This document shows, in pieces, positions 1,326 to 47,131 of a DNA stretch of 51,577 nucleotides. Both the position numbers and the translations under genes were made by a program. The notes beneath the pieces are model-generated. The model was given only the letters and a program-made list of their open reading frames with translations, searched no databases and was not told where the DNA came from. Positions within the stretch are counted from its first letter, which is position 1. Each line of letters starts with the position of its first letter. The stretch comes from a virus (taxonomy: Duplodnaviria > Heunggongvirae > Uroviricota > Caudoviricetes), in the IMG/VR virus record IMGVR_UViG_3300046692_000385, one strand, 5' to 3'.

Positions 1326-1355
1326 ATTATACAGTCAGACCTGACTGTTATTCAA
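1326..1355 (-). promoter_or_regulatory. sigma70-type promoter for tail fibre with palindromic operator filling the spacer
   Basis: TTGAAT-AACAGTCAGGTCTGACTG(18)-TATAAT on minus strand; core 1333-1346. Confidence 0.8.
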
Positions 1356-1539
1356 TCTTCGGAAAAGACTCCTTTACAGCGGTGCAGTGCTCGATCCAGG
1401 CAACCGTTTCGGCTGGCAGTTCGACGCCCGATTCCTTGAGCGCGGCGAACCCCTTCATGAGCGCGTCGAGCTGGTCGCCGAGACTCATATAAGCGGCTTG
1501 GCGCAGCGGCGTCGGGTCAACTTTGTGGTGGATCTTCAT
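1348..1539 (-). CDS. Small tail-associated protein (63 aa)
   Basis: Overlap-coupled ORF between tail tip genes and fibre. Confidence 0.6.
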   Translation of the reverse strand: MKIHHKVDPTPLRQAAYMSLGDQLDALMKGFAALKESGVELPAETVAWIEHCTAVKESFPKIE

Positions 1540-1919
1540 GCTTGCGTGACCTCAAAAGTGGCGTCGAGCATCGGCCAGGCATCGACCTTGACTGTGTAGG
1601 TGCCGGGGTGACTGAAGGAAAGCTCGACCGTTGCGTCGGTGCAGGCGTGATCGACCCCTTCAACCGTCACCATGCAAGGCGCCGGCACGTTCTTGAGCGT
1701 CATGCCTTCGAGCGTGGTGGGGTTGGCGGGGCGCGCTACGACTGCGCCCTCCTTCACGTAGTGGGTCTCGGGCGTGCCGACGCCCAGCACCAGGCTGCCA
1801 CCCTCGGGCGCCGCCTGATACGCGAACATGAAGGTCGGCACACTGCCGAAGAACAGGATGCGTCCTTCGGCGTCAGCGGCGACATAGTGCGTGGCAGAAC
1901 CGTCAGAAATGATTGTCAT
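1536..1919 (-). CDS. Tail-associated hypothetical protein (127 aa)
   Basis: ATGA overlap with J stop; beta-rich C-terminus. Confidence 0.6.
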   Translation of the reverse strand: MTIISDGSATHYVAADAEGRILFFGSVPTFMFAYQAAPEGGSLVLGVGTPETHYVKEGAVVARPANPTTLEGMTLKNVPAPCMVTVEGVDHACTDATVELSFSHPGTYTVKVDAWPMLDATFEVTQA

Positions 1920-4900
1920 CGCTTGGCCTCAAAAATTGCTGTCTGGACATTGGAGACGTTTGAGCCGCTCGCGCGAATGCTCACCGTGTAGGCGCCGTTC
2001 ATGCCAGTGATGCGCATGAAGGAACTCGCCCGATCGCCCCGGTCGTTACTGATCGCCAGGTATTGACCATTGACCGTCACCGTGGCAGAGCCCGCCTGGT
2101 TGGAACCGGTGGTCGAGTTATACATGCCGCAGTTCGCCGAGATGAACACCAGGACGTCGCCGCCCGAGGCGTAATAGGTCGGGTCGCCCGTGCCGCCCCA
2201 CGACGCCATTGTCGTCACGGCGTTGCCGGCGATACGCAGCGTGTCGATCTGGGCGGTGCCGATGTGGGCGGTCTGGATCTGTGCCGAGCCGATCTTCGCC
2301 GCCGTGATCTGCGCGTCACCGATCTTCGCGGTGTTGATCGCCGCGTCGCCGATGATGGCGCTGTTGATGATCACCTGCGGGTTGCCGTAGACCGCACCCA
2401 CCGTGAACGGCCGGATGCCCGGGTAGCCCGGAAGCTGGATCGAGAAGGTGTCCGCGCGCACGGCGAACTCGCTCACGATGCCCTGACCCACCGGATACGA
2501 GGCGAGACCGAAGCCCGACACGTAGCCATTGTTGTCGATCTTGACCGTGTATTGCGCGTTCAGGCCGCCGATCGAACTCCAGGCGCTCGAAATCGAGGCG
2601 GTGTTGGAGTCCACCTTCGAATTCACCTGCGTGGTGTAGTTCGCTTGCGCCGTGTCGCCCGCTGCGCGCGCGCTGATTTCGGTCTGCACGTTCGCATTGG
2701 TCGTGCCGAGCGACGCATTGACGCTATCGATGCGGGTCGAGAGCGCCCCGTCTGCGCTCGCGCGGGCGGTCTGCTCGGTGCTGATCGCGGCCATTGCCGG
2801 CTGCGTGATCGAGGCCGGGCGCCATTCGACGTCCGTGAAATACCAGCGGTTGGCGTCGTCGGTGCCCGTGATGTTGATGTTGATCCAGAGCTCCGCCTGC
2901 ACGTAGCCGGCGGGGATCGTCACGGAACCGGCGATGCGCGTCCAGGTCTTGGTCGCAGCGAGCGTGGCGGCCGGCATGAAGGCCGCGGTGCCGGAGCTGG
3001 TCAGCAGGCGCAGGCCAAGCGTGAGCGTGGCGGCCGCGACTGGGGTTGCGGCGTTGAGCTCCAGGTAGTGCTGCTGGCCCGGTGTCACGTCCACGATACG
3101 GCCGGTGAAAAGGCTGTCGCGCTGGTTCTGCTTGAAGACGTTCGCCGCCGGCGCCCCGGAAGGCACGTCGGAGAGCGTCTTGCTCATCACCGTGAGACCC
3201 GACCAGCCGGTCGTGCCGTTGCTGCCGACCGGGTTCGCGCAGAGGTTGGTCGGATCGACGCCGAAGCTTGCCGCGACGGTCGTGATCTGAGTCGCGAGTG
3301 CGCTGTCGGCCGCGGTCCGCGCGTCCGCTTCCACCTGCACCGCTGCCGTGTTGCTGCCGGTGTTGGCCGCTACCAGGTCAATGCGGGTCGAGAGCGCGCT
3401 GTCGGCGGAGGTGCGCGCGTTGGTCTCGGTCGTGATCAACGCGGTGTTGCCGCTCGTCTGCGAGGCGACCGTATCGATGCGGGTCGACAGTGCCCCGTCG
3501 GCCGTGGCGCGCGTCGTCTGCTCGCTCTGGATCAGCGCGGCGTTGCTGCCGGCGGAGGCCGAGACCGTCGCGATCTGGGAGGCGAGGCTGTCGGTCGCGC
3601 TCTGGCGAATCGTCTGCTCGGCGGTGATCGCGGTGGTCAGGTTGCTGGAGAGCAGCGTCTTGGCCGTGTTCACGCGCTCGTTGACCGAACCGATGATCGA
3701 GGCCGGTGCGTCCACCAGGTTGATACGCGTCTGGAGTGCCGGGATCAGTTGCGAGTCCTTGAGCACGCCAGCGGCGATCGCGTTCACGTCCATGTAGGGC
3801 GTGACGAAGTGAAACTCCTGCGACGGGATCGTCTCGTCCAGCCCGAACGCATCGTAGGGCACGATGTGGAAGTAATAGTCGGAGTTGAACATCAGGTTGG
3901 TGAGCAACACCGATGTATCCGGGCCGTCATAGGCCGGCACCGTCGACACTTCCAAATCGTTGATCCAGCGCAGGTAAATCTGGGCGCCCGCGTAGTCCGA
4001 ATCGTCCGTGTGGACGAAGTTGATCTGCACGCGATCGTAGGCGGGCGAGACCGTGACCGCGCTCACCTGCGGCGGCGGGTTGTAGGCATCGAGCACCGCG
4101 GGGCTGCCGATATGGTTGAAAATGTCGCGCGCGGCGATCTCGAACGTCAGGCGCCGGTGCGTGCCGTCGGCGACGTTCTTTTCAAACGTGTAGATGTAGG
4201 AATTGTCGGTCGTGTGCTCGGTGCGCAGGAGCTTGTGGCTCGAGTCGTAGACCCGGACCTCGTAGTCCTGGAAGTGCGGGTCGCGCGTGCCCGAGTCGGC
4301 GCCGTTCGCCTCACTGCCGAATTCGAAGGAGCTCGTGACCGAGTTGTAGTTCCAGTAAAGCTTGCAGTCGCGGCCTGCCCACACGAAGTCAGCGCCCGAG
4401 ACATCGGCGACGGCGATGTTGCCGACGTAGCCGATCACCGTGTAGCTCTGGGTCGGCGCGTTGTCGTATGCCGCGCGCTTGCCCCAGACGTCGTAGGCCA
4501 CGACCTTCACCGTGATCTTGTCACCGGCGGCGAGCCCCGAGATGACGCAGCTTGTCGCCGCAGCCACCGACCGGTAGAGCGAGTAGCCGGAGCCGTTGAC
4601 CGCCATATAGACGTCGGCGCCCGCATACGAGCCCACCTGCGGCGTGTCCCAGGCCGCGCGCACGTCCGAGAGGATCTGGGTGCCCGAGACGTAGGTTTCC
4701 TCATACACGGAGAGCGACAGCACCTCGCTGATCGCCGCAGCCTCTGCAGGCAGGGTCGGCGCGACCAGGGTGGAGGTCACATCGTCGTAGCTGGAGAGGT
4801 CATAGACCGCCTCGTTGTATTCGAGCGCGGTGATGTGGCGGTTCAGGCTCGAGGTCGCGAGCGTGATCGACTTCACACGGAAAGGCTTTTTGACCTTCGT

Positions 4901-7663
4901 CGCCTCGCCGAACATGTAGTTGGTGAACTGCTCGGGCGCGTAGGAGAGGCCGCTCTTGAGCGTGATCGTGTCGGTGGTGCCAGCGACCGTCATGACGTCC
5001 GCGTCCGTTACCACGTCCGTGTCGAAGAGTGTCGCCATCTGGCCCGCGGCGAACCCCGTCACGTCATCGACGTAGACCCCATCGGGCACCATCGAGAGAA
5101 TCGACGTCTCCTGACCGCCCGCGGCGCGGATGCGGTTCACGCGCACGGCCGAATTCACGCCACCGACGATCTGCACGAAGTTGCCGATCACCGACTGCAC
5201 GATCGGGGTTCCGCGCACGACGTAGTTCGTGAGCAAGAGCACCTTGTAGTTCTTGCCCGCGTCCATCGAGACGGGCTTGTCGAGCTTCAAGACGCTTGCG
5301 GTGGACCCGACTTCGAGTCGTCCCGACTGCGCCCAGTTCGGCATGTCGTGTTGCACCAGAATCACATCGCCCGGCGTGCAGGCGATTGCTTCGAGCGGCG
5401 CGTCGAACGAGACCGTCTGCGAGAGATAGCGATTCAGGTTCAACTGGAACGCGCCTTCCTTGTAGGCGGTCGTGATGTTGTCCACGCCATAGAGCGTGAT
5501 GGCCGAAGGGTTTTGCTTCTTGCCCGATTGCGCGAGCGTCGGGTCCACTACCTTGACGGTGTGGGCCTTGTTGTAGTCGTTCTTGTCGTAATAGGTAACA
5601 TCGATCTCGGTGGCGCGATCGTTCTGCCCAAGCCACGTCATCTTGAACGTGTCTTTGACGATGTTGCCCATGCCGAACATCATCACCGGCTCGGAGGGCG
5701 CTTCGGTTGCCACGTAAAAGCGCGTGCCGACCTGGATCACCTGGGCGTGACCCACGCGCAGGATGAGCGCGGAGGCGTCCCAGAAGGTCATCGTCTGGTC
5801 AAGCGGCCCGTTCCAGGTGAGCCCGGCGCTGGTGCAATAGCTCGCCCACGCATAGACCGAATCCATGTCGATGCGCGCGAGGTCGATGCCCGCGCCGTAG
5901 ATCGGGTTGGTTGCCGCGTCGAGCCAGATCCAGGCCGGATTGGTCGAGGGCAACTGCGAGGTGGTCTGCGAGCCATCGCTGCGCTGGTAGACCGTGATCA
6001 GCTTGCCGCCGTGCAGGAACGAGACAGTCGGCACGCCCGAGAGCTGGTCGTCCATCTGCACGCGGATCGCCAGCAGCGCCGTGTGGTTGTAGGCCACCTC
6101 GTCGAAGGTAATTTCGTTCAGGTCCGTCAGATACGTGTCCGACTGGGACGTGTCGCTCGTGTCGGTCGGAAACGACGTCAGCACGCCGTTGCCTGACGGG
6201 TCGTAGGTCTGAATCGAGTAGTTCACGTCGCGGCGGATACGGAACTCGTATTTGCCCATCGTGAGCTGCGGCGAGGTGAAGCTGCGCCGAACCGTCGAGC
6301 GCAGGTTGTCGGTGATGTGCAGATCGGACGAGGAGCCCGTCGTTTGCACCGTCATCGACACGCCTGCGGGGGTCGCGGCGATGGCGCTGCCCGGCCACGC
6401 GACGAGCGTGCGCCCGACGTAGCCGCCGTATTTGTTATAGGCGGCCGTCACCTGAGCAGCGGAGCCGTTCGCGCCGTCGCTCTGGAACACCGTGAGGCCG
6501 TCGATGGTCAGGAACTCGGCGTTCTCCGGCATCGTCTGGATCGTGAGACCGTTGACCGTCGGGTAGACGATCACGTTCGAGTAGCTGGTCTCCGTGTCCG
6601 AGCCCATCGGCACCCAGTCGCTCTCCTTGGTGCTGCCATACGGGCGGTATTGAACGTTGAGGGAGACCGAGTTCGATTCGAACGAACCGTTCTTCTTGTT
6701 GACCGAATACAGGCCCGAGGGGCAGTTGAAGTCCAGGCGCACCTGTTCGACTTCAGAGAGCGTCGAGGTCGAGATCCACGAGCCGTCCGAAGGCAGCATG
6801 ATCTGCTTGCTGACCGGGCTGATGACCTTGTTGAACCAGTCGATCGGCGCTTGCGTGCTGTAGCCCAGACGCGTCTGGGTGGTCACGTTGGCGAATTCGC
6901 TGATCGCGCGCCCATTCAACTGAATGTCGGAGATGCCGGCGATCGGCCCCTCCCCGGCATTGATCAGCATGTAGAGGAACTGGTTGTTGCCGTTGTTCGC
7001 CGCGTCCGAGCCGCTCGTATTCGCCTCGGTAAACATCCCGATGATGTTGCCGGCCGTGCGAAAGCCGTTGCCGTAGACGACGGGCACCGGAATGCCTTCG
7101 GAGCTGGTGTTTTTTGCGCCGTCCGCGCCGTAGCTTGCCGAGTTGCTGATGCTGGAGGCGCCCGAGGTGGAGGCAGCCGGCAGGAGCGCGTTCACGAGCA
7201 GCGAGCCCGCGATCGAGACCACCATCGAGGCGGCCATGCCGGCGACCATCATGCCGGTGGTCGTCACGCCCGCAGCCACACCCGTTGCCGCGCCGTAGGC
7301 GGCCATTGCGAGCCCGCCCGTGTAGACCGCAGCAATGGCAACCGCAATCATGCCGACGATACGGAAGATGCCCTTACCACCACCGCCACGCGGAATCGGG
7401 CACATCACCACGTAGTCGTCGGGCTGCGGGTAGGTCTTGGCAAGCACCGCGTGCGGGACGATGCCGCCATTCATCGAGATGACGTAATCCTCGGCGAACA
7501 CCTGCGGCAGATAGGCGGCCAGCGACTTGTTCTTCCGGTAGGGCCACTTGTCGACTTCGATGGCGCGAAACGGCTCAAACGGATTGGTAATCCGCTTGAC
7601 CGTGATGAACTTCTTTTCGCGCGCCTTAGTGGCTTTGCGGGGCTTGGCTGTCGCTGTATTCAT
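1916..7663 (-). CDS. Central tail fibre / host-specificity protein (lambda J-like) with N-terminal tail-assembly I-like segment
   Basis: About 1915 aa; hydrophobic GMIAVAIAAVYTGG segment, IPVPVVYG and EGPIAG motifs, FN3-like region, EQTARASADxALSTRIDTV repeats, YTVKIDNNGYVSGFGLA...FAVRADTF (DUF1983-like), AxIxxAKI pentapeptides; start chosen at MNTAT (7663), track start 7696. Confidence 0.88.
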   Translation of the reverse strand: MNTATAKPRKATKAREKKFITVKRITNPFEPFRAIEVDKWPYRKNKSLAAYLPQVFAEDYVISMNGGIVPHAVLAKTYPQPDDYVVMCPIPRGGGGKGIFRIVGMIAVAIAAVYTGGLAMAAYGAATGVAAGVTTTGMMVAGMAASMVVSIAGSLLVNALLPAASTSGASSISNSASYGADGAKNTSSEGIPVPVVYGNGFRTAGNIIGMFTEANTSGSDAANNGNNQFLYMLINAGEGPIAGISDIQLNGRAISEFANVTTQTRLGYSTQAPIDWFNKVISPVSKQIMLPSDGSWISTSTLSEVEQVRLDFNCPSGLYSVNKKNGSFESNSVSLNVQYRPYGSTKESDWVPMGSDTETSYSNVIVYPTVNGLTIQTMPENAEFLTIDGLTVFQSDGANGSAAQVTAAYNKYGGYVGRTLVAWPGSAIAATPAGVSMTVQTTGSSSDLHITDNLRSTVRRSFTSPQLTMGKYEFRIRRDVNYSIQTYDPSGNGVLTSFPTDTSDTSQSDTYLTDLNEITFDEVAYNHTALLAIRVQMDDQLSGVPTVSFLHGGKLITVYQRSDGSQTTSQLPSTNPAWIWLDAATNPIYGAGIDLARIDMDSVYAWASYCTSAGLTWNGPLDQTMTFWDASALILRVGHAQVIQVGTRFYVATEAPSEPVMMFGMGNIVKDTFKMTWLGQNDRATEIDVTYYDKNDYNKAHTVKVVDPTLAQSGKKQNPSAITLYGVDNITTAYKEGAFQLNLNRYLSQTVSFDAPLEAIACTPGDVILVQHDMPNWAQSGRLEVGSTASVLKLDKPVSMDAGKNYKVLLLTNYVVRGTPIVQSVIGNFVQIVGGVNSAVRVNRIRAAGGQETSILSMVPDGVYVDDVTGFAAGQMATLFDTDVVTDADVMTVAGTTDTITLKSGLSYAPEQFTNYMFGEATKVKKPFRVKSITLATSSLNRHITALEYNEAVYDLSSYDDVTSTLVAPTLPAEAAAISEVLSLSVYEETYVSGTQILSDVRAAWDTPQVGSYAGADVYMAVNGSGYSLYRSVAAATSCVISGLAAGDKITVKVVAYDVWGKRAAYDNAPTQSYTVIGYVGNIAVADVSGADFVWAGRDCKLYWNYNSVTSSFEFGSEANGADSGTRDPHFQDYEVRVYDSSHKLLRTEHTTDNSYIYTFEKNVADGTHRRLTFEIAARDIFNHIGSPAVLDAYNPPPQVSAVTVSPAYDRVQINFVHTDDSDYAGAQIYLRWINDLEVSTVPAYDGPDTSVLLTNLMFNSDYYFHIVPYDAFGLDETIPSQEFHFVTPYMDVNAIAAGVLKDSQLIPALQTRINLVDAPASIIGSVNERVNTAKTLLSSNLTTAITAEQTIRQSATDSLASQIATVSASAGSNAALIQSEQTTRATADGALSTRIDTVASQTSGNTALITTETNARTSADSALSTRIDLVAANTGSNTAAVQVEADARTAADSALATQITTVAASFGVDPTNLCANPVGSNGTTGWSGLTVMSKTLSDVPSGAPAANVFKQNQRDSLFTGRIVDVTPGQQHYLELNAATPVAAATLTLGLRLLTSSGTAAFMPAATLAATKTWTRIAGSVTIPAGYVQAELWININITGTDDANRWYFTDVEWRPASITQPAMAAISTEQTARASADGALSTRIDSVNASLGTTNANVQTEISARAAGDTAQANYTTQVNSKVDSNTASISSAWSSIGGLNAQYTVKIDNNGYVSGFGLASYPVGQGIVSEFAVRADTFSIQLPGYPGIRPFTVGAVYGNPQVIINSAIIGDAAINTAKIGDAQITAAKIGSAQIQTAHIGTAQIDTLRIAGNAVTTMASWGGTGDPTYYASGGDVLVFISANCGMYNSTTGSNQAGSATVTVNGQYLAISNDRGDRASSFMRITGMNGAYTVSIRASGSNVSNVQTAIFEAKR

Positions 7664-8021
7664 AAAATCCGACGATCCGTTGCTTCCAGTGGTCAAGGCG
7701 CTCTGTCACCACGCCCCCGGATTGCTCCCAGGTGTGGATAAAGCGAGAGTCAGTAATGACTATTCCGCAGTGCGCGATAAAGCGCCCTGTTTTGAACATG
7801 ACGAGCGCGCCGACCTTCGGGTGGTCCAGGCGCTTCCAGAATTCGCGCGAGCCCACCATCAGCGCGTGAATCATCCCCGCGTCCTCGGGTGCGCCGTAGT
7901 CAGGGACCGTGATGCCCTGATCGCGCTCGATGATGTAGCGGCACAGCCCGTAACAGTCGAACTTGTCCGGGCCGCGCGCACCACGCTCGAAGGGAATGCC
8001 TATCAGTTCCGCGTTCGTCAT
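7626..8021 (-). CDS. NlpC/P60 tail tip protein (lambda K-like)
   Basis: GPDKFDCYGL catalytic Cys motif, HCGIV and FIHTW His motifs. Confidence 0.88.
   Translation of the reverse strand: MTNAELIGIPFERGARGPDKFDCYGLCRYIIERDQGITVPDYGAPEDAGMIHALMVGSREFWKRLDHPKVGALVMFKTGRFIAHCGIVITDSRFIHTWEQSGGVVTERLDHWKQRIVGFYEYSDSQAPQSH
7748..7761. promoter_or_regulatory. Operator palindrome inside NlpC/P60 coding sequence
   Basis: AGTCAGTAATGACT, perfect core, about 85 nt upstream of the J start. Confidence 0.55.
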
Positions 8022-8025: not shown

Positions 8026-8052
8026 GATAGTCAGTATTGACTATCATTTTAG
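8026..8052 (-). promoter_or_regulatory. Operator and candidate -10 upstream of NlpC/P60
   Basis: TAAAAT followed by GATAGTCAATACTGACTATC (8-bp arms). Confidence 0.7.
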
Positions 8053-8684
8053 CGGTAAATCGAGCCCGAGGGAACCAATGAAGGCATGCCCCCGAAATTC
8101 ACCACGTTGCTGTGTGCGCGGCAGCCGAGCGTGCCATCGAGCGTGTGGTCGCAGGTGCCCAGCGAACCCGAGTAGCGGCAGGTGTTGACGTCCTTGTAGA
8201 CCCACGGGCAGAAGTCGCGGCGCTGCACGCGCTTCGGGAACTGCCGGGTGAGTGCGTTCTCCGCGCCGAGCGTGAAGGTGACTTCGTAGTTGGTGGCGCT
8301 CGCGGCGGTCACTTCGAAATACTCGGCCACTTCCGGGTCGCCGTTGAGGTTGTTCGAGGCATAGACCGAGATCCTCACGTTGAACCCCACCCCGCCCGAG
8401 TAGGCGTCCATCTTCGAGAGCACGGTCTGCGTGTAGTCGGCAAAGGAGAGCGAGATCGAGGGCGTTTCGCCGGAGGCGGCCGACAGCTCGATCGCGAACT
8501 GAATTGCCATGTAGGTCTGCCCACCTACCACCACGTCTTCGGTGTTGTTCACGTAACGCAGCGTTTCCAGCACCGCGCCTGTTACCGGGTCCGGCACCTC
8601 GATGTCCAGAAGCGCGAGGTAGGCCACATCGGAGGCGATGCGGTTTTTCTCGATAACGGACGCGACGGAGATCTTGTTTGCCAT
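8049..8684 (-). CDS. Minor tail protein (lambda L-like hub)
   Basis: C-terminal four-Cys pattern CPWVYKD..C..GTC......C; position between distal tail and NlpC genes. Confidence 0.8.
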   Translation of the reverse strand: MANKISVASVIEKNRIASDVAYLALLDIEVPDPVTGAVLETLRYVNNTEDVVVGGQTYMAIQFAIELSAASGETPSISLSFADYTQTVLSKMDAYSGGVGFNVRISVYASNNLNGDPEVAEYFEVTAASATNYEVTFTLGAENALTRQFPKRVQRRDFCPWVYKDVNTCRYSGSLGTCDHTLDGTLGCRAHSNVVNFGGMPSLVPSGSIYR

Positions 8685-14581: not shown

Positions 14582-14601
14582 AACAGTCAGATTTGACTGT
14601 T
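14582..14601. promoter_or_regulatory. Operator between tail tube and chaperone genes
   Basis: AACAGTCAGATTTGACTGTT; followed on the minus strand by TTGCAC and hairpin 14547-14570. Confidence 0.75.
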
Positions 14602-14608: not shown

Positions 14609-15127
14609 TTACGGCGCGACCGGGGCGGCGCCGACCTTGAACAGCTTCTTGGTGACCGGATCGGGGTAGCCCGTGAAGTCCACCGAGAAGATGCGTTCCT
14701 TCTCGACTTCGTAGGCGAAGTCCAACGCGCCTGCCGTTGCTGCCAGCGGGATCACGAAGTCTTCCGAGTAGTCGGTGGGCGCCTTCGCGATCGGGTGCAG
14801 ACGCAGCTCCTTCGCGATCGACAGCAAGTCGATGCCAATGCCCGAGTCCACTTCGACGCTCTGGTTCGCACCCGTGCCGACGAGCGTTGCGCCCGGCATG
14901 ATCTGCACCAGGTTTTCGATCGTCGTTTCAGCGAGCGGCACCTTCGCCGACACGTCACGCGACATGATCAGTTCGTTGACGGTCGTCTTGCCGAACTGGT
15001 CGATGTTCACTTTGTGGGTGTCGGTCTTCACCGTCACTTGCACGCCGCCCTGGGTGTAGCCGAGGTCCACGCCGTCGAAAAAGACGGTGCAGACGCCCAA
15101 CTTCACGTTCTTTGTATCGCTTGCCAT
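14609..15127 (-). CDS. Major tail tube protein (172 aa)
   Basis: NVKLGVCTVFFDGVDLGYTQGGV N-terminus; position; RBS AAGGAG. Confidence 0.85.
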   Translation of the reverse strand: MASDTKNVKLGVCTVFFDGVDLGYTQGGVQVTVKTDTHKVNIDQFGKTTVNELIMSRDVSAKVPLAETTIENLVQIMPGATLVGTGANQSVEVDSGIGIDLLSIAKELRLHPIAKAPTDYSEDFVIPLAATAGALDFAYEVEKERIFSVDFTGYPDPVTKKLFKVGAAPVAP

Positions 15128-15153: not shown

Positions 15154-15187
15154 ACAGTCAGTTCTGACTGTCGCCGAATATACCACA
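15154..15187 (-). promoter_or_regulatory. Extended -10 promoter plus operator for tail tube gene
   Basis: TGTGG-TATATT, then 5 nt, then ACAGTCAGAACTGACTGT. Confidence 0.72.
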
Positions 15188-18396: not shown

Positions 18397-18427
18397 CTGA
18401 CTGGCTTTCGCCAGTCAGTTCTGACTG
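18397..18427. promoter_or_regulatory. Operator overlapped by a 9-bp hairpin just after the capsid stop
   Basis: CTGACTGGC-TTTC-GCCAGTCAG sharing its right arm with CAGTCAGTTCTGACTG. Confidence 0.65.
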
Positions 18428-19418: not shown

Positions 19419-19462
19419 ACAATACCACAAAATGGCTCCTTTGAACAGTCAGTTTTGACCGC
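19419..19462 (-). promoter_or_regulatory. Capsid promoter (extended -10) with operator over the -35 region
   Basis: TGTGG-TATTGT; operator AGTCAGTTTTGACC at 19447-19460. Confidence 0.62.
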
Positions 19463-22141: not shown

Positions 22142-22170
22142 ATTATTAGTCAGTTCTGACTGTTGTGCAA
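22142..22170 (-). promoter_or_regulatory. Portal promoter with operator in spacer
   Basis: TTGCAC-AACAGTCAGAACTGACT(17)-AATAAT. Confidence 0.68.
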
Positions 22171-24114: not shown

Positions 24115-24143
24115 AAAAAAAAAGGGCGCAGAGGTGAGCGCCC
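24115..24143 (-). terminator. Intrinsic terminator between terS promoter and terS
   Basis: GGGCGC-N8-GCGCCC followed by 9 T. Confidence 0.75.
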
Positions 24144-24178: not shown

Positions 24179-24225
24179 ACTGTAGCGACCGCCTTGGCCT
24201 TTGTCAACAGTCAGTTTTGACTATT
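24179..24225 (-). promoter_or_regulatory. sigma70 promoter for terminase operon with operator abutting -35
   Basis: TTGACA(24207-24202)-17-TACAGT(24184-24179); core 24209-24222. Confidence 0.8.
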
Positions 24226-27924: not shown

Positions 27925-27929
27925 TTTGC

Positions 27930-27954
27930 ATAGTCAGTTTTGATTGTTGGTCAA
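27930..27954 (-). promoter_or_regulatory. Operator with upstream TTGACC
   Basis: TTGACC-AACAATCAAAACTGACTAT; -10 weak. Confidence 0.6.
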
Positions 27955-30081: not shown

Positions 30082-30128
30082 AACAGTCAGTATTGACTTA
30101 TACTACGCCAACTAAACCAGGATGGCAA
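30082..30128. promoter_or_regulatory. Divergent promoters sharing one operator
   Basis: Minus: TTGCCA-17-TAGTAT then operator; plus: operator 30085-30098 then TATACT (30099-30104). Confidence 0.72.
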
Positions 30129-31696: not shown

Positions 31697-31723
31697 TGGT
31701 ATTTTCACAGTCACCACTGACTA
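31697..31723 (+). promoter_or_regulatory. Extended -10 plus operator before small membrane gene
   Basis: TGG-TATTTT-C-ACAGTCACCACTGACTA-AGGAG. Confidence 0.65.
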
Positions 31724-32363: not shown

Positions 32364-32384
32364 AGCATGAGCGAGGCAGACTCC

Positions 32385-32408
32385 AAGGCACCTTCGGGTG
32401 CCTTTTTT
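32385..32408 (+). terminator. Intrinsic terminator
   Basis: AAGGCACC-TTCG-GGTGCCTT-TTTT. Confidence 0.85.
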
Positions 32409-32409
32409 G

Positions 32410-32862: not shown

Positions 32863-33172
32863 TTTTTGGTCTCCCTCGGTCAATTCGAGCGAGATTATAG
32901 ACAGCGCGCAAGCGCCGCGGCACGAGAACTATAAGGTTCCACCCACCACTCACCCATCTACCCAAGAACCCAGTGTGTTCTGTGCCATGTGGCGTGTGTT
33001 CGGGCGCGGATTGGACTGCGGGAGGTGCTGCGGGGATGCGGCTGTATAAGGAAGCGCGGACCTGGGCGGCCTGGCTCTATAAGGAAGCGTGTTTGGGGGT
33101 CTGAGGCGAGGAAGGGAGGGCCACCTGCACCGCTGAGATTTCCTAAGACTTCGGTCTCTGCGGTTCGCGCGG

Positions 33173-33343
33173 TTACTGCGTCGCGCGCTCTACACAAATT
33201 CGCGTTGCGTTGTCGCTCGCGCGTTGAATCTCGCGCAGACGTTTCGCGTAGTGTCGTTCTGTGCTTTCGATCAGATACGCGAGCGCACCGAATGCGAGAA
33301 CAGCAGAGATGATAGCGAAGAGTGAGAACGGTTCGAAGTGCAT
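33173..33343 (-). CDS. Small membrane protein (56 aa; not in track)
   Basis: MHFEPFSLFAIISAVLAFGALAYLIESTERHYAKRLREIQRASDNATRICVERATQ; own promoter. Confidence 0.65.
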   Translation of the reverse strand: MHFEPFSLFAIISAVLAFGALAYLIESTERHYAKRLREIQRASDNATRICVERATQ

Positions 33344-33375
33344 GCTTGTGTGTCCGTTTGAGTGAGTGTGTAGAG

Positions 33376-33419
33376 ATTCTAGCGTGCGTTACACAATACG
33401 TGCAATGTCTTTTTGCACG
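33376..33419 (-). promoter_or_regulatory. sigma70 promoter with CGTGCAA-N7-TTGCACG inverted repeat
   Basis: TTGCAC-18-TAGAAT; 24-bp element shared with 34475-34498. Confidence 0.72.
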
Positions 33420-33585
33420 AAAACATAGAACGACTTTTCGAACGTAAAACCTTGACCGTGAAACGTGCGAGTAACGATAACGAACATAGCGATTAAACCG
33501 GTTTAGAGACGTTTTGAGCGGTTCGCAGCACATGCAGCTACTCTGCGTTGTCTGACTGCTGCGAACCGGTTAGAGCGCTTCTGAG

Positions 33586-33601
33586 TGTTTCACGTGAAAC
33601 A
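33586..33601. promoter_or_regulatory. parS: Chromosomal-type parS site within a 26-bp perfect palindrome (33581-33606)
   Basis: TGTTTCACGTGAAACA, exact match to the widespread bacterial parS consensus. Confidence 0.82.
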
Positions 33602-33614
33602 CTCAGTTCTGACT
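33601..33614. promoter_or_regulatory. One-mismatch operator overlapping the parS palindrome arm
   Basis: ACTCAGTTCTGACT. Confidence 0.55.
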
Positions 33615-33623
33615 AACCGCTAA

Positions 33624-34373
33624 TTACGCGGTAAACATCGCTTGCACTTTTTTTGCTGCTGCTGCGTCAGTCAGTGTGATCGAGTCATCTTTGCGCGACT
33701 TAATGACGTTGCACACATTCAGAAAGCGCAACATTTGACGCGTGCTAGATGCTTGCGTGCTTGCGGTTGACGGTTCGCACATCTTGAACGAGCGGACCGC
33801 TTGAGTCTGCATATCTTCGCTAAACACGACTTTGTTAGAGAGCGACATTTGCGAACCGCGATTCGACAGCGACTCAAGCTTAATGAGATTTTTGAGAATC
33901 GCTTGCGTATAACCGTCGAAAACCGAAGTCATACCGCACGCAAGTGCAAAAATCGCTTTGCGGATTTTCTGTGCTGCGTAAATCGCAATGTAATCGTGCG
34001 CAGTCTTATCCGTGACAGCGTAGCAGCGCGACAGCGTAACAAAATCGACGTCGAGCGCTTGACACTTTTCGATAGCGAGCAACGCATTGCGACCGCTCAA
34101 TTGCGACAGTTCTGCGCGCATGTTCTTTGCGAAATTGTCGTTCGGTGCGTGCTTGATACGCGTTTCAATTGCTGCGAGCAAAAGCGCTTGCGCTGCTTCT
34201 GCTTTCTCTGCTGCGCTCACTTCTGCGACTTCTGCGACGACTTCAACCGCGAGCGCTTCAACCGCTTGCGCTTCGTCATTCGTGAGCGCTTGCACTTCTG
34301 CGACCGGTTGCGCTTTTTTGCTGCGTGCGCGCTTCGTTGCTTGTGCGTTCGTTGCGTTAGCTGCGTTCGTCAT
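33624..34373 (-). CDS. Hypothetical protein (249 aa) in GG-free island; possible DNA-binding protein
   Basis: Strong promoter; Ala/Glu-rich N-terminus; C-terminal STASTQASSTRQML motif. Confidence 0.8.
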   Translation of the reverse strand: MTNAANATNAQATKRARSKKAQPVAEVQALTNDEAQAVEALAVEVVAEVAEVSAAEKAEAAQALLLAAIETRIKHAPNDNFAKNMRAELSQLSGRNALLAIEKCQALDVDFVTLSRCYAVTDKTAHDYIAIYAAQKIRKAIFALACGMTSVFDGYTQAILKNLIKLESLSNRGSQMSLSNKVVFSEDMQTQAVRSFKMCEPSTASTQASSTRQMLRFLNVCNVIKSRKDDSITLTDAAAAKKVQAMFTA

Positions 34374-34403
34374 TTTCTTTCTCGCTAGTGTGTGTTGTGT
34401 GTG

Positions 34404-34498
34404 TAGTCAGATTTGACTATCTGTCGTCGCAGCAACGTTGCTGCGACTGAGATGAATTATGAAGCATCGAAACGATACGTGCAAACTCTTTTTGCACG
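34404..34498 (-). promoter_or_regulatory. Promoter, leader palindrome and operator of ORF 33624-34373
   Basis: TTGCAC(34484-34479)-17-CATAAT(34461-34456); 22-bp palindrome GTCGCAGCAACGTTGCTGCGAC 34426-34447; operator 34405-34418. Confidence 0.8.
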
Positions 34499-34613
34499 TT
34501 TTTCATGTGCGTGCATTTTCGCAACAAAAGCACGTTAGAGCACGTGCTCTATTGACGGGGCTTTTTGGTCTGCGTAGACGCGACGTCAATGCGGGTGATT
34601 CTCATTGGCGGAG

Positions 34614-34989: not shown

Positions 34990-35178
34990 TCAGTAGAGCT
35001 CCATCACCCCGACGCGCCCGTTGGTGCGGATCTGGCGGCGCAGGTGACGGATCTCAGCCTCCTCCTGCTGCTCCTCCATCCAGTCAGCGAGGGCAAAGGT
35101 GCTCATGCCCTTGAAGGGGGTCGGCTCGGCTTCAGCAGCTTGGGTGGACGGTTCGAAGGCGCGGATCGTGGTGTTCAT
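34990..35178 (-). CDS. Hypothetical protein (62 aa)
   Basis: Follows operator 35211. Confidence 0.6.
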   Translation of the reverse strand: MNTTIRAFEPSTQAAEAEPTPFKGMSTFALADWMEEQQEEAEIRHLRRQIRTNGRVGVMELY

Positions 35179-35207: not shown

Positions 35208-35238
35208 GACAGTCAGCTTTGACTGTCGTTAAGCTTAC
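35208..35238 (-). promoter_or_regulatory. Operator with candidate -10 TAAGCT 5 nt upstream
   Basis: GACAGTCAGCTTTGACTGTC (35208-35227). Confidence 0.72.
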
Positions 35239-35399
35239 GCGTTAGCACGCGGCGGTGTGGTGGGCTTCGACTTGGCCCGGCGCGGCTTCGTCACCCAGAG
35301 GATGAGATCGAGGAACTTCATCCACCCGTAGGTGACGGCAGCCCCGATGAGGACGAGGCCCAGGATCGCGAAGATCCATTCGGCGTAGTCCTGGCTCAC
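35235..35399 (-). CDS. Small membrane protein
   Basis: GTG start; WIFAILGLVLIGAAVTYGWMKF. Confidence 0.55.
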   Translation of the reverse strand: MSQDYAEWIFAILGLVLIGAAVTYGWMKFLDLILWVTKPRRAKSKPTTPPRANA

Positions 35400-35755
35400 A
35401 GGCGCACCCCGAAGATGAGCTTGCATTGCTCCTTGACGTGATCGATCTCCTGCGAGGCGAGGTAGACGACGGCTTGCTCAGGGTGATCGTGGCGCACCTC
35501 ATGGCCGCCTACGAAAAGCCTCACCTGGCCGGCATCCTTCCTCACGGCCTGGATGTCCAGGCTCGTATGCCAGGCGGTGCAGGCAGCAGCCTGCGGGAGC
35601 TTGGTGAGGTGCTTCTGGTCGGCCCGGACGTAGACGGTGGCAGCGAGGTCAGCCTGGCGGGCACGGGTTTGGCGGCTCAGGGCGTGGTCAGCGGGCACGT
35701 CGTAGGGTTTCGTCATGGCAAGGTAGCTCTTGATCAGGGAGAGAAGGCGTTTCAT
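35396..35755 (-). CDS. Hypothetical protein (119 aa)
   Basis: Shared AC-rich leader; hairpin 35774-35803 upstream. Confidence 0.62.
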   Translation of the reverse strand: MKRLLSLIKSYLAMTKPYDVPADHALSRQTRARQADLAATVYVRADQKHLTKLPQAAACTAWHTSLDIQAVRKDAGQVRLFVGGHEVRHDHPEQAVVYLASQEIDHVKEQCKLIFGVRL

Positions 35756-36888: not shown

Positions 36889-36975
36889 CTTCGGGGTCCG
36901 GTTGTCGCTGCACGTCGCAGCAGATTCAATTATTCACTTCTGACTAAGGCTTTACTGCGGGTATCGGCATGGGCG

Positions 36976-37938: not shown

Positions 37939-37967
37939 ATTATAGTCAGGAATGACTGTTGGCGGAA
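37939..37967 (-). promoter_or_regulatory. Promoter with perfect -10 and operator in spacer, facing an ORF-free region
   Basis: TTCCGC-CAACAGTCATTCCTGAC(17)-TATAAT. Confidence 0.7.
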
Positions 37968-41768: not shown

Positions 41769-41797
41769 ATCGTAATCAGTTTTGACTGTTACCGCAA
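41769..41797 (-). promoter_or_regulatory. sigma70 promoter with operator in spacer
   Basis: TTGCGG-TAACAGTCAAAACTGAT(17)-TACGAT. Confidence 0.75.
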
Positions 41798-45903: not shown

Positions 45904-46123
45904 CGATGGTCTCCTTCATGCGTCGGATGGCCTCGTCAAACGAGGATGCTTCTGTCTTGTGCGGCCCAAGCGTCACCTCGAAGGTGCGGCCCTTGCACAC
46001 GTGTCTGATCTGGCGCTCCTCCACCGCGTCCGCATACCAGCGCCAGAGTTCGGCGTCGGCCTTGTTGGCGTTCGCGCGGGCGGTGAGGCGAATTGTGTCG
46101 AGGCAGGTGGCGTTCACCAGCAC
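45881..46123 (-). CDS. Hypothetical protein (80 aa)
   Basis: Coupled ORF. Confidence 0.55.
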   Translation of the reverse strand: MLVNATCLDTIRLTARANANKADAELWRWYADAVEERQIRHVCKGRTFEVTLGPHKTEASSFDEAIRRMKETIDAQPLAA

Positions 46124-46353
46124 ACCTCGACTGCGGCGACGTGGCGCTCGTCGACGAAAACGCTGCGCTGCGTGGCGTGGTGGAAGTCGCCGCTCTTTTT
46201 CTCCCAGAGCTCCATGAAGGCCACGCCGTCATCGAAGCGCATGACAGCGCCGTGCAGCTCCTCACCCGACGCGAGGCGGATATGCAGCGTGTAGCCGTTG
46301 CCGTGATGCTTTCTGTCGTCGGCGTGCGCGATGGCTTGTGCGAGTGCGCTCAT
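46114..46353 (-). CDS. Hypothetical protein (79 aa), Sm-like beta fold possible
   Basis: GGAGGAG RBS; IRLASGEELHGAV. Confidence 0.62.
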   Translation of the reverse strand: MSALAQAIAHADDRKHHGNGYTLHIRLASGEELHGAVMRFDDGVAFMELWEKKSGDFHHATQRSVFVDERHVAAVEVCW

Positions 46354-46378: not shown

Positions 46379-46395
46379 TAGTCAATTGTGACTGT
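46379..46395. promoter_or_regulatory. Operator
   Basis: TAGTCAATTGTGACTGT. Confidence 0.72.
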
Positions 46396-46421
46396 CGATC
46401 GCAGGGAACGTGTTGGGTGTT

Positions 46422-47048
46422 TCAGTGGCGGTTGCGCAGCCAGCGGGCTTGCACGATGGCGTCGCGGGTCTTCACGTCGGCAAGCGGGTCCGAGATCACC
46501 AGCGTATCGTCGGTGGGCCGCACCATCAGGTTCGCCGAGTGCAGGTCCAGCCCCCACCCCTCCTCGACGTTGCTCGCGAACTGATGCAGTTCGGCGAAGG
46601 CCTCCTGCACGGATTCGGGCAGTGACTCGTCCATCGAGAGCTCCTGGATGGCGAGCGTGAGCCCCTCTCGTTTTCTGTGGAATCGCAGGTGTGAGGTGGC
46701 GTGCGTGGTGGCCTGGCGGCAGACGCGGCGCGCCAGGGCGCGAAGCGGCCCGCTCTTTGGCAGTTTCTCCAGCTTCTCGCACTCGAAGAGGTAGAGCGGG
46801 TGTCCGTCCACCTCACCGATTTCGCCGTGATTGAACAAAACCTGGGTGAAGTGTCGGCTGGAGCAGCCGATTACCTGGTCGGTGCTGAGCATGTAGGCGT
46901 ATTGGTCGAGCGTGAGCTTGTGGACCGTGTTGCCGGTGTCGAACACGGCGGAGAACGAACCGCGCGCCAGAACCTTTTTACCGATGATCGCCTCGTGACA
47001 GCGGGCCGCTTTCACCCCTGCGTCGCTCAAATTGAGAGCCTTGAACAT
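46422..47048 (-). CDS. Protein kinase-like fold protein
   Basis: LARGSFSAVF Gly loop, VHKL, DLHSANLM catalytic loop, VISDP metal-binding motif; start MFKAL behind GGAGG. Confidence 0.75.
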   Translation of the reverse strand: MFKALNLSDAGVKAARCHEAIIGKKVLARGSFSAVFDTGNTVHKLTLDQYAYMLSTDQVIGCSSRHFTQVLFNHGEIGEVDGHPLYLFECEKLEKLPKSGPLRALARRVCRQATTHATSHLRFHRKREGLTLAIQELSMDESLPESVQEAFAELHQFASNVEEGWGLDLHSANLMVRPTDDTLVISDPLADVKTRDAIVQARWLRNRH

Positions 47049-47073
47049 TGCACCTCCAGAACGTCTGTTTTCG

Positions 47074-47131
47074 ATAGTCAATTATGACTAACTGAGCGTG
47101 GATAATACAGTCAGTGATGACTGTTTTACAA
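47074..47131 (-). promoter_or_regulatory. Promoter with two tandem operators
   Basis: TTGTAA-AACAGTCATCACTGACTG(18)-TATTAT; second operator 47076-47089. Confidence 0.8.

What the first reader, a model, noticed from the sequence alone, without database searches (positions are those of the whole stretch)
1333..47122. One palindrome, AGTCA-N4-TGACT, marks almost every early and late transcription unit
SEEN: 16 perfect cores (1333, 7748, 8029, 14585, 15156, 18413, 22148, 24209, 30085, 31709, 34405, 35211, 37944, 46380, 47076, 47109) and 5 one-mismatch cores (19447, 27932, 33601, 36932, 41774). About 0.05 perfect copies are expected by chance at uniform composition. Nearly all are intergenic or at gene boundaries, often with arms extended to AACAGTCA. 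INFERENCE: a single master regulator controls many dispersed promoters, unlike the lambda cascade and closer in logic to P1 C1. The binder is not identified; candidates are ORF 33624 (operator in its own leader), wHTH 24691 and RHH-like 32070, or a gene outside the window.
Basis: partly seen in the sequence, partly recalled or inferred. Interest (0 to 1): 0.75.

Follow-up and report, generated by a model that had tools for sequence, protein, structure and literature searches.

The report
Scattered repressor operators of a phage-plasmid
A 14-bp two-fold symmetric DNA site sits on or beside most promoters in this half of a ~110-kb plasmid-like temperate phage. It is most likely the docking site of one phage-encoded repressor that keeps the whole lytic programme silent, a known kind of circuit that I found no paper describing for this widespread phage group.

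Summary
There are 16 perfect AGTCA-N4-TGACT sites (0.02 expected) and the five named one-mismatch sites. A sixth one-mismatch site, inside the portal gene, is probably chance. Fifteen of the 16 perfect sites lie in the 12% of non-coding DNA.

The window is the structural and early half of an SSU5-supergroup phage-plasmid from a Paraburkholderia-like host. Relatives with 41-68% GC keep the site at the same gene junctions. In a 78%-identical relative the arms are 96-99% conserved, the centre 53% and the flanks about 80%. In three host genomes the motif, or its local variant, is almost confined to the element.

Sites overlap sigma-70-like promoters in three different registers, which fits occlusion by a repressor rather than activation.

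The best binder candidate lies outside the window. It is a ~140-aa XRE/HTH_3 protein found in every complete motif-bearing relative, with operators clustered at its own promoter. It is modelled as a dimer and is orthologous to the "putative repressor" expressed in the E. coli LF82 Cyrano lysogen. It is missing from virulent SSU5 and from the lytic phage nickie.

ORF 33624, which has a winged-helix C-terminus, survives as a weaker rival.

Earlier notes of this scan reported the same motif on the other half of this genome and on a relative. This is a new member of a known kind (P1 C1, L5, phiC31). No binding or transcript data exist.

The parts
1333..1346 (.). perfect site between ORF 1348-1539 and ORF 3-1292 (both on the - strand), inside the spacer of a - strand promoter, TTGAAT-18-TATAAT (1355-1326)
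   Evidence: same aligned position in G001 (3227)
7748..7761 (.). perfect site inside ORF 7626-8021 (-), 50-85 bp upstream of the 1.9-kaa tail-fibre gene; no promoter recognised
   Evidence: conserved in G001 (9604)
8029..8042 (.). perfect site in the 27-bp gap between tail genes 8049-8684 and 7626-8021; lies just downstream of a -10-like TAAAAT
   Evidence: G001 9886
14585..14598 (.). perfect site between the stop of ORF 14609-15127 and a GC-rich hairpin; no promoter recognised
   Evidence: G001 16515
15156..15169 (.). perfect site 8 nt downstream of the -10 of GTGACT-17-TATATT (15205-15177, - strand), that is, near +1
   Evidence: G001 17095
18413..18426 (.). perfect site between the major capsid gene stop (18433) and the next gene start (18386); no promoter recognised
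   Evidence: G001 20353; same junction in the A. baumannii plasmid
19447..19460 (.). one-mismatch site abutting the weak -35 of the major-capsid promoter (TGTTCA-17-TATTGT)
   Evidence: perfect site at the same place in G001 (21389)
22148..22161 (.). perfect site between the large-terminase stop (22172) and the portal start (22134), in the spacer of a promoter-like match at 22169-22142
   Evidence: G001 24077
24209..24222 (.). perfect site immediately upstream of the -35 of the strongest promoter in the window (TTGACA-17-TACAGT, 24207-24179, - strand), which heads the terminase operon
   Evidence: G001 26146
24115..24143 (-). intrinsic terminator (GC stem plus a run of nine T) in the leader between that promoter and the small-terminase-like gene (start 24087)
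   Evidence: the layout is kept in about 15 relatives
27932..27945 (.). one-mismatch site between ParB-like ORF 27956-28609 and ORF 27425-27931, in the spacer of TTGACC-16-TATGCA
   Evidence: one-mismatch site at the same place in G001 (29878)
30085..30098 (.). perfect site in the divergent gap between ParB-like 29418-30065 (-) and the helicase 30136-31692 (+); overlaps promoter-like matches on both strands
   Evidence: G001 32042
31709..31722 (.). perfect site between the helicase stop (31692) and ORF 31734-31922, directly before its ribosome-binding site
   Evidence: one-mismatch site in G001 (33676)
33601..33614 (.). one-mismatch site just past the stop of ORF 33624; the same mismatch (ACTCA) is kept in G001
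34405..34418 (.). perfect site 32 bp upstream of the ATG of ORF 33624-34373 (-)
   Evidence: no alignment to G001 spans it
35211..35224 (.). perfect site between small ORFs 34990-35178 and 35235-35426
36932..36945 (.). one-mismatch site between small ORFs; the weakest case
   Evidence: no alignment to G001
37944..37957 (.). perfect site in the spacer of TTCCGC-17-TATAAT (- strand)
41774..41787 (.). one-mismatch site in the spacer of TTGCGG-17-TACGAT (- strand); the same mismatch (AATCA) is kept in G001
46380..46393 (.). perfect site 27 bp upstream of ORF 46114-46353 (-)
   Evidence: G001 48804
47076..47089 (.). perfect site, the downstream one of a pair; lies about 13 nt after the -10 of the 47131-47102 promoter and 28 nt before the ATG at 47048
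   Evidence: G001 49519 (one mismatch)
47109..47122 (.). perfect site, the upstream one of the pair, in the spacer of TTGTAA-18-TATTAT (47131-47102, - strand)
   Evidence: G001 49552

Best explanation
The palindromes are operators: double-stranded DNA sites for one phage-encoded dimeric repressor. The element is a ~110-kb SSU5-supergroup phage-plasmid, and this window holds its tail, head, packaging, ParB/ABC/helicase and small early genes. Each site lies on or next to a sigma-70-type promoter: against the -35, in the -35/-10 spacer, or at the start site. A bound dimer would therefore keep RNA polymerase off. A minority of sites without a recognisable promoter may act as roadblocks or sit on promoters I cannot see. 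The most likely binder is a ~140-aa XRE/HTH_3 protein encoded outside this window, in the immunity region of the other half of the genome. It has an N-terminal helix-turn-helix and a C-terminal dimerisation domain. While it is made (plasmid or prophage state) nearly all lytic units are shut directly; when it is removed they open together. The sites, their placement, their conservation and their confinement to the element are shown. The promoters, the repression and the identity of the binder are inferred.
For: (1) Excess and placement: 16 sites against 0.02 expected, and 15 of 16 lie in the 12% of non-coding DNA, P = 3e-13.
(2) Promoter link: 7 of the 11 strict promoter-like matches in the window touch a site, P about 6e-8. 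Across 220 non-redundant sites from relatives, good promoters appear only in the direction of transcription. They fall in three registers: the -35 starting at site position 14, the -10 right after the site, or the site just after the -10.
(3) The register differs between relatives at the same promoter. At the capsid promoter the gap from site to -10 is 17, 21 or 22 nt, or the site lies downstream of the -10. There is a 2-bp shift at the terminase promoter. This is expected for occlusion, not for activation from a fixed face.
(4) Footprint: against G001 (about 78% nucleotide identity) 17 of 21 sites align to a site. Arms are 96-99% identical, the centre 53% and the flanks 76-83%. Weak sites keep the same mismatch.
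(5) Phage-borne, not host: full relatives carry 10-34 sites and an A. baumannii plasmid carries 23. In host genomes 34 of 39 (Paraburkholderia MAG) and 18 of 19 (Massilia) sites lie in the element. For the AGTAA variant, 21 of 28 lie in a 100-kb Halomonas prophage.
(6) Binder: the XRE protein is found in all 13 complete motif-bearing virus records searched and in the A. baumannii plasmid. Operators lie within about 0.1-0.7 kb upstream of its gene in 19 of 19 genomes, and the one nearest the gene is usually imperfect.
(7) Dimer model: score 0.63 against a best control of 0.00, a mark reached by 21 of 30 proteins solved as pairs of one chain and 0 of 23 solved as single chains. The runs agree in at least 95% of contacts and pLDDT is at least 82. 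The interface is in the C-terminal half. HTH_3 dimers are solved, so this pass may reflect likeness.
(8) Its ortholog in E. coli LF82 phage-plasmid Cyrano (hhalign probability 99.9%) is CYRAN_45, 'putative repressor', expressed 10-fold above local background in the lysogen (PMC9928086).
(9) Lytic phage nickie has neither the sites nor the gene. SSU5, called virulent in PMC5427195, keeps 8 variant palindromes but lacks the gene, because that stretch is replaced.
(10) The residue before the [P/A/Q]-N that starts the recognition helix is K, R, T or S in AGTCA genomes and N in the AGTAA (Halomonas) and TAAGTA (SSU5-type) genomes.
Against: No binding, footprint, transcription-start or expression data exist for this element, and no RNA reads could be laid. 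The XRE gene was seen only in relatives; the window's own genome is not held. Nine of 21 sites have no recognisable promoter. Two of these, 14585 and 18413, sit just after the stop of a structural gene (18413 after the major capsid gene), and at 14585 the site lies between the stop codon and a hairpin, which is an odd place for a promoter. The helix-versus-motif correlation rests on two or three independent switches and is not clean: L069 has S-Q-N with AGTCA, and RHEph10 has Q-S-N with yet another motif. One MAG element (G006) has 7 variant sites and an ORF 33624 homolog but no detectable XRE ortholog. The ORF 33624 family shows the same presence and absence pattern as XRE among AGTCA genomes. 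The central 4 nt are biased with the direction of transcription, which a purely symmetric dimer does not explain.
Confidence: 0.65

Rival explanations
1. The sites are operators with the same logic, but the binder is the in-window ORF 33624 family (249 aa, C-terminal winged helix), alone or as the specificity subunit.
For: The family is present in 14 of 14 complete AGTCA-type records and in the A. baumannii plasmid, and absent from nickie and SSU5. The model (pLDDT 83) has a C-terminal winged helix resembling MarR/ArsR/PadR regulators, Z 8.0-8.6, rmsd about 2.6 A over about 80 residues. The putative recognition helix is among the best conserved stretches and differs in G006, whose sites are the AGTAA variant. 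There is a perfect site 32 bp before its ATG and a weak one after its stop.
Against: No homolog was found in the Halomonas prophage, which has 21 AGTAA-type sites, or in the SSU5-type plasmids and Cyrano. Those elements have dispersed palindromes and the XRE gene. Its own leader carries a perfect operator, like any repressed lytic gene. The densest operator cluster is at the XRE gene, not here. Z values of 8 are middling for a small helical domain.
Confidence: 0.12
2. The palindrome is a positive promoter element. A phage activator bound there, for example at -41.5 as a class II activator, switches lytic promoters on.
For: In about 30% of sites from relatives the last T of the site is the first T of the -35 hexamer, which puts the site centre at -41.5. 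The capsid promoter has a poor -35.
Against: Spacing is not fixed. The same orthologous promoters have the site 17, 21, 22 or 24 nt from the -10, or downstream of it. Many sites lie in the spacer or at +1, where a bound protein must block polymerase. The terminase promoter is already near consensus (TTGACA-17-TACAGT). Lytic relatives such as nickie run the same genes without the site.
Confidence: 0.08
3. The element works in RNA: a short hairpin in polycistronic transcripts used for processing, stability or translational control.
For: With the extended arms the RNA hairpins are stable, -5.7 to -8.4 kcal/mol. Sites sit between cistrons, sometimes a few nucleotides before a start codon. Variant motifs change both arms together.
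Against: At the terminase promoter, and on the + strand at the helicase promoter, the site lies upstream of the predicted start and so is not in that transcript. Stem sequence rather than pairing is conserved (arms 96-99%). Conserved weak sites break the stem without compensation (33601, 41774). One site serves divergent genes (30085). There is no T-run.
Confidence: 0.05
4. The site is a target for a host factor or for a non-transcriptional process such as methylation, packaging or partition (for example the two ParB-like proteins).
For: Two ParB-like genes lie in the window, and ParB/Noc proteins bind scattered palindromes (established knowledge).
Against: Host chromosomes hold only background numbers of sites. 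The same site is kept in hosts of two proteobacterial classes and from 41 to 68% GC. The ParB-like genes are also in nickie and RHEph10, which lack the motif. The strong intergenic and promoter bias argues against a methylation or packaging signal.
Confidence: 0.03

Closest known systems
Phage-plasmid P1: C1 repressor and its dispersed operators
   Same: It is a plasmid prophage in which one immunity repressor acts directly at many operators spread over a ~100-kb genome, rather than at a single switch region.
   Different: From my own knowledge, not tested here: P1 operators are asymmetric 17-bp sites read by a C1 protein that is not of the HTH_3 type, and P1 late genes are reached indirectly through the Lpa activator. 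Here the site is a 14-bp palindrome, the candidate binder is a small XRE dimer, and head and tail promoters carry the operator themselves.
Mycobacteriophage L5 / Cluster A repressor gp71 with operators and 'stoperators'
   Same: There are tens of copies of one short site in short intergenic gaps of both early and late operons, including places without a promoter.
   Different: From my own knowledge: stoperators are asymmetric 13-bp sites, act in one orientation and block elongation. Here the site is two-fold symmetric and more than half of the copies overlap promoter-like elements.
Streptomyces phage phiC31 repressor and its conserved inverted repeats
   Same: A palindromic operator is repeated at many intergenic loci of a temperate phage and read by the immunity repressor.
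   Different: From my own knowledge: those are 17-bp repeats read by several isoforms of a large repressor in an integrating actinophage. No sequence relationship was tested.
Lambdoid CI/Cro (434, P22, lambda) operators
   Same: An HTH_3-type dimer reads 14-18-bp palindromic operators that overlap the -35/-10, and the repressor gene has operators at its own promoter.
   Different: Lambdoid operators are confined to two switch regions and late genes depend on a cascade. Here about 45 copies are spread over the genome. The XRE protein has no S24 peptidase part (142 aa), and the divergent neighbour is not an HTH protein.
CYRAN_45, 'putative repressor' of E. coli LF82 phage-plasmid Cyrano (PMC9928086)
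   Same: It is orthologous to the XRE family found here and is expressed in the lysogen.
   Different: The paper names no operator. SSU5-type elements carry a different palindrome, TAAGT-N4-ACTTA. Binding was not tested there either.

Membership tests
Dispersed-operator immunity regulon of a temperate phage (P1 C1 / L5 gp71 / phiC31 type) | Many copies of one short site spread over the phage genome, far above chance | tested here: met
   16 perfect sites against 0.02 expected; relatives carry 10-34 per genome
Dispersed-operator immunity regulon of a temperate phage (P1 C1 / L5 gp71 / phiC31 type) | Sites lie at promoters or in intergenic gaps of lytic operons | tested here: met
   15 of 16 are intergenic; 7 of 11 strict promoter matches touch a site
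Dispersed-operator immunity regulon of a temperate phage (P1 C1 / L5 gp71 / phiC31 type) | Sites are bound by the phage's own immunity repressor and repress transcription | not testable with these tools
   There is only indirect support: co-occurrence, clustering at the candidate's own promoter, and loss of the gene in a virulent relative
Cro/CI-type (XRE, Pfam HTH_3) repressor with palindromic operators | The candidate binder has an HTH_3 domain | tested here: met
   PF01381 is over its cut-off in G001 and G002 and below it in G003 and G005. The family is named XRE by NCBI. This was seen in relatives, not in the window's own genome
Cro/CI-type (XRE, Pfam HTH_3) repressor with palindromic operators | The protein is a dimer, matching a two-fold symmetric site | tested here: met
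   Model score 0.63 against a best control of 0.00. The mark was reached by 21 of 30 solved one-chain pairs and 0 of 23 single chains. Runs agree in at least 95% of contacts and pLDDT is at least 82. This is a model only and may reflect likeness to solved HTH dimers
Cro/CI-type (XRE, Pfam HTH_3) repressor with palindromic operators | Operators lie at the repressor gene's own promoter | tested here: met
   True in 19 of 19 AGTCA-type genomes; five sites lie within 520 bp in G001
Cro/CI-type (XRE, Pfam HTH_3) repressor with palindromic operators | The gene is present in this element itself | not tested
   No genome is held for the window. An earlier scan note places an XRE gene about 28 kb before the window start; I did not check this
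L5-type stoperators | Asymmetric site that works in one orientation inside transcribed regions | tested here: not met
   The arms are a perfect inverted repeat. Only the 4-nt centre and the flanks are orientation-biased
Class II activator site | Fixed spacing (centre at -41.5) at each regulated promoter | tested here: not met
   Three registers are seen, and spacing varies at orthologous promoters
Intrinsic terminator / REP-like RNA hairpin | GC-rich stem followed by a T-run, or spread through the host genome | tested here: not met
   There is no T-run at the sites and the host chromosome is at background
Lambda PR'-tR' type late control (for the terminase leader only) | A strong promoter followed closely by a terminator ahead of the late genes | tested here: met
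   Promoter 24207-24179 and terminator 24143-24124; the layout is kept in about 15 relatives
Lambda PR'-tR' type late control (for the terminase leader only) | A Q-like antiterminator acting at that promoter | not tested
   No candidate was searched for

The most novel reading that the evidence does not exclude
The lytic programme of this large phage-plasmid clade is wired flat, with two further layers. One small XRE dimer sits directly on about 45 promoters, head and tail promoters included. The same palindrome is also read by a second, unrelated winged-helix protein (the ORF 33624 family), which acts as the lytic-phase counterpart (a Cro analogue) in the AGTCA branch. The terminase operon adds a conserved promoter-proximal terminator as a second lock. 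Specificity would have drifted in step along the supergroup, from AGTCA to AGTAA to TAAGTA with K/R changing to N in the recognition helix.
Probability: 0.15. Interest if true: 0.65.

Novelty: new member of a known kind. Interest (0 to 1): 0.5.

Why it matters
Phage-plasmids of the SSU5 supergroup are common in Enterobacteriaceae, Acinetobacter baumannii and soil Burkholderiales. I found no paper in the held library that names their lysis-lysogeny control beyond one 'putative repressor' annotation. A defined operator, a candidate repressor and a genome-wide list of controlled promoters would make that switch directly testable by gel shift, reporters and start-site mapping. They would also give a simple sequence signature for telling temperate members (motif plus XRE gene) from lytic or virulent ones (nickie, SSU5), and a natural series of operator and recognition-helix variants for studying how immunity specificities diverge. 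As a mechanism it is an expected kind of circuit, not a new principle.

Tried and rejected
- Megablast of 20 kb against phage records found no close relative.
- No whole genome is held for the window, so the other half and its XRE gene could not be read.
- My first two automatic gene calls picked antisense frames, for example for the portal gene. I replaced them with a GC1>GC2/GC3 list completed by hand.
- Widening the helix-versus-motif test did not work. Four more distant XRE-family members lie in other kinds of elements or in regions without repeated palindromes (P0015, P0027, P0101, P0052), so they gave no test. The TCTTG-N5-CAAGA repeats in L167 are coding repeats.
- RNA evidence: no RNA holder is listed for the window, which is found only in rhizosphere and soil metagenome DNA runs. 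RNA runs found with the Acinetobacter-type XRE gene held only a small share of its words. Four runs laid on 20 kb of G004 gave zero reads, which is no test.
- Literature: no paper in the held library contains the site strings. Searches on phage-plasmid, repressor, operator and Acinetobacter found no description of this motif.
- wHTH 24691 is rejected as the specificity determinant. Its recognition helix is nearly invariant across AGTCA-type, AGTAA-type, SSU5-type and motif-less relatives.
- RHH-like 32070 is rejected. It is absent from G004, G011 and the A. baumannii plasmid, which carry 1-24 or more sites.
- The ParB-like proteins are rejected because they are present in nickie, which has no sites.
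- Foldseek against the PDB gave no hit at E <= 0.001 for ORF 33624.

Full report
**Observation.** Allowing one mismatch gives 22 sites against 1.18 expected. On a hand-curated gene list, 15 of 16 perfect sites lie in the 12.3% of 1-47200 that is non-coding (P = 3e-13). The exception, 7748, is inside ORF 7626-8021 but just upstream of the large tail-fibre gene. The extension to ACAGTCA/TGACTGT is present in about half of the copies.

**What the DNA is.** The window has 62% GC, and most genes lie on the minus strand. PHROG hits name the following genes:
- large terminase, 22172-23440
- portal, 20506-22134
- major head protein, 18433-19344
- two ParB-like proteins and two ABC-type ATPases
- a helicase on the plus strand, 30136-31692

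The terminase is 75% identical to that of ~107-kb Acinetobacter baumannii plasmids. It is about 60% identical to those of Salmonella phage SSU5, Rhizobium phage RHEph10 and Pseudomonas phage nickie. The capsid protein is 94% identical to one in a Paraburkholderia MAG. DNA runs holding the window are rhizosphere and soil metagenomes. Earlier notes of this scan describe the other half of the same genome as a phage-plasmid with about 28 more copies of the motif. I treated those notes as leads.

**Conservation.** Among 100 loci around capsid-gene relatives, the exact motif recurs at the same junctions (before and after the capsid gene, after the terminase, and so on). This holds in relatives down to about 72% capsid identity and from 41 to 68% GC. 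Complete relatives carry 10-34 copies and an A. baumannii plasmid carries 23.

I aligned the window with G001, a complete relative about 78% identical in nucleotides. Seventeen of 21 sites have a site at exactly the aligned position. Arms are 96-99% identical, the central 4 nt 53% and the flanks 76-83%. Weak sites keep the same mismatch, at 33601 and 41774.

In whole host genomes the motif is confined to the element: 34 of 39 sites in the Paraburkholderia MAG and 18 of 19 in a Massilia genome. So the reader of the site travels with the phage.

**Variants.** More distant members carry related palindromes:
- AGTAA-N4-TTACT in a Halomonas prophage, with 21 of that genome's 28 copies inside 100 kb, and in a betaproteobacterial MAG element, with 7 copies all on the phage contig
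- TAAGT-N4-ACTTA in SSU5 and SSU5-like plasmids

Lytic phage nickie has none.

**Relation to promoters.** I oriented 220 non-redundant sites from relatives with the direction of the structural genes. Good sigma-70-type promoters then appear only in the forward direction, in three registers:
- The -35 hexamer starts at the last T of the site (site centre -41.5); 30% of sites.
- The -10 lies directly after the site, so the site is in the spacer; about 21%.
- The site lies just after the -10, around the start; about 25%.

In the window, recognisable promoters of these kinds accompany 1333, 8029, 15156, 19447, 22148, 24209, 27932, 30085 (both strands), 37944, 41774 and 47109, with 47076 just downstream. 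The tool's stricter independent scan finds 11 promoter-like matches in the whole window, no more than in shuffles. But 7 of them touch a site (P about 6e-8).

The register is not fixed at orthologous promoters. At the capsid promoter the gap from the site to the -10 is 17, 21 or 22 nt, or the site lies downstream of the -10. At the terminase promoter there is a 2-bp shift between close relatives. Variable placement anywhere within the polymerase footprint is what a repressor tolerates and an activator does not. The terminase promoter is near consensus on its own. I therefore read the sites as repressing operators.

Nine sites have no promoter I can recognise: 7748, 14585, 18413, 31709, 33601, 34405, 35211, 36932 and 46380. 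They may be roadblocks in the manner of L5 stoperators, or promoters of a kind the scan misses. This is open.

**Who binds.** G001 has five sites within 520 bp, directly upstream of an HTH_3 gene. The protein is about 142 aa. The evidence for it is as follows.
- Orthologs (30-42% identity) are present in all 13 complete motif-bearing virus records searched and in the A. baumannii plasmid.
- In 19 of 19 AGTCA-type genomes operators lie within about 0.1-0.7 kb upstream of the gene. The operator nearest the gene is usually imperfect, as expected for a repressor gene that must stay on.
- A two-copy model passes the control test. The score is 0.63 against a best control of 0.00, a mark reached by 21 of 30 proteins solved as one-chain pairs and by 0 of 23 solved as single chains. 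Runs agree in at least 95% of contacts and pLDDT is at least 82. The contacts are in the C-terminal half, leaving the HTH free. Because HTH_3 dimers are solved, this shows likeness rather than proof.
- The family is essentially restricted to ~100-116-kb elements of Acinetobacter, Salmonella, Klebsiella, E. coli, Cronobacter and Halomonas.
- Its ortholog in the LF82 phage-plasmid Cyrano is the 'putative repressor' CYRAN_45, transcribed 10-fold above local background in the lysogen (PMC9928086).
- SSU5, called virulent in PMC5427195, keeps its palindromes but lacks the gene. The stretch that holds the gene in a Yersinia pestis plasmid is replaced in SSU5.
- Nickie lacks both the gene and the sites.
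- The residue preceding the [P/A/Q]-N at the start of the recognition helix is K, R, T or S in AGTCA genomes and N in the AGTAA and TAAGTA types. This fits the usual Lys/Arg-guanine and Asn-adenine preferences. It rests on only two or three independent switches and is not clean (L069, RHEph10).

- wHTH 24691 is conserved from AGTCA-type to SSU5-type and motif-less relatives with an almost unchanged recognition helix. It cannot set the specificity.
- RHH-like 32070 is missing from G004, G011 and the A. baumannii plasmid.
- ORF 33624 is a real rival. It co-occurs with the AGTCA motif exactly as XRE does. Its model has a C-terminal winged helix. Its helix differs in the one AGTAA-type element that has it and in which I could not find XRE. 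But it is absent from the Halomonas and SSU5-type elements, which have XRE and dispersed palindromes. It also carries a perfect operator in its own leader, like any repressed gene. I put XRE at about two in three and ORF 33624 at about one in eight.

**Other rivals.**
- An RNA hairpin is energetically possible. It does not fit sites that lie upstream of the predicted start, a site shared by divergent genes, uncompensated conserved mismatches, or conservation of sequence rather than pairing.
- Host factors and the ParB-like proteins are unlikely for the reasons given under confinement and nickie.

**A qualification of "unlike lambda".** The operon that starts with the small-terminase-like gene has a conserved layout. 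In order it has the operator, a near-consensus promoter (24207-24179), a 30-50-nt leader with a C/T-rich block, a strong intrinsic terminator (24143-24124 plus a run of nine T), and then the gene. This layout is kept in about 15 relatives, including ones with variant operators. It looks like lambda PR'-tR', so an antitermination step may lie on top of direct repression. I did not look for the antiterminator.

**Comparison and novelty.** The logic matches P1 C1, L5 gp71 and the phiC31 repressor: one immunity protein and tens of operators. The molecular parts (small HTH_3 dimer, 14-bp palindrome) resemble lambdoid repressors. It is not an L5-type stoperator, because the site is symmetric, and not a class II activator site, because the spacing is not fixed. 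I found no paper describing the motif. The same scan had already noted it on the other half of this genome and on G001. I class it as a new member of a known kind, of moderate interest. All functional statements remain inference until binding and start-site data exist.

Noticed in passing
window 24087-24222: The small-terminase/terminase operon is headed by the operator, a near-consensus promoter (TTGACA-17-TACAGT), a short leader with a C/T-rich block and a strong intrinsic terminator (24143-24124 plus nine T). The layout is kept in about 15 relatives of 41-68% GC, including ones with variant operators. It resembles lambda PR'-tR' and suggests an antitermination layer.
   Followed up: partly
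window 33624-34373 (-): ORF 33624 belongs to an uncharacterised phage family (phrog_4202). It has a disordered A/E-rich N-terminus and a well-modelled C-terminal winged helix. It co-occurs with the AGTCA motif across relatives. It could be a second regulator of the same circuit.
   Followed up: partly
window 34426-34447: A 22-bp perfect palindrome lies directly upstream of operator 34405, ahead of ORF 33624. Relatives have a palindrome of different sequence at the same place, which hints at a structure-conserved element.
   Followed up: no
window 1-47122, all sites: The 4-nt centre is not symmetric. On the + strand position 6 is G in 13 of 16 sites, so read with the mostly minus-strand genes the centre is about AAAC. 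In the Paraburkholderia MAG relative most of the sites on the element (C3:309-411 kb) read as one identical 14-mer, and it flips where the gene direction flips. Between relatives the centre is only 53% conserved. This within-genome uniformity of a supposedly uncontacted spacer is unexplained.
   Followed up: partly
L140 (Salmonella phage SSU5), L115/L133/L134 (SSU5-like plasmids), L145 (Cyrano): SSU5 carries 8 copies of TAAGT-N4-ACTTA between late genes but lacks the XRE repressor gene that its plasmid relatives and Cyrano have. The stretch is replaced, consistent with SSU5 being a virulent derivative.
   Followed up: partly
G007 (Halomonas/Vreelandella sulfidaeris genome) 1.864-1.964 Mb: An integrated ~100-kb relative carries 21 copies of the variant AGTAA-N4-TTACT, two of them at its XRE gene, against 7 in the other 4.4 Mb.
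   Followed up: partly
window 47200-51577: The right end has lower GC (0.56-0.60) and no sites. A 403-aa ORF (47507-48718, -) has no PHROG hit. This end was not analysed and may be cargo or a module boundary.
   Followed up: no
window 32000-34600: A low-GC island (0.557 in the 32001-34000 bin) holds several CACGTG-centred palindromes and terminator-like hairpins around ORF 33624. In two close relatives a GTTTCACGTGAAAC core follows the ORF as well.
   Followed up: no
It is consistent with the roughly one chance match expected.
   Followed up: yes
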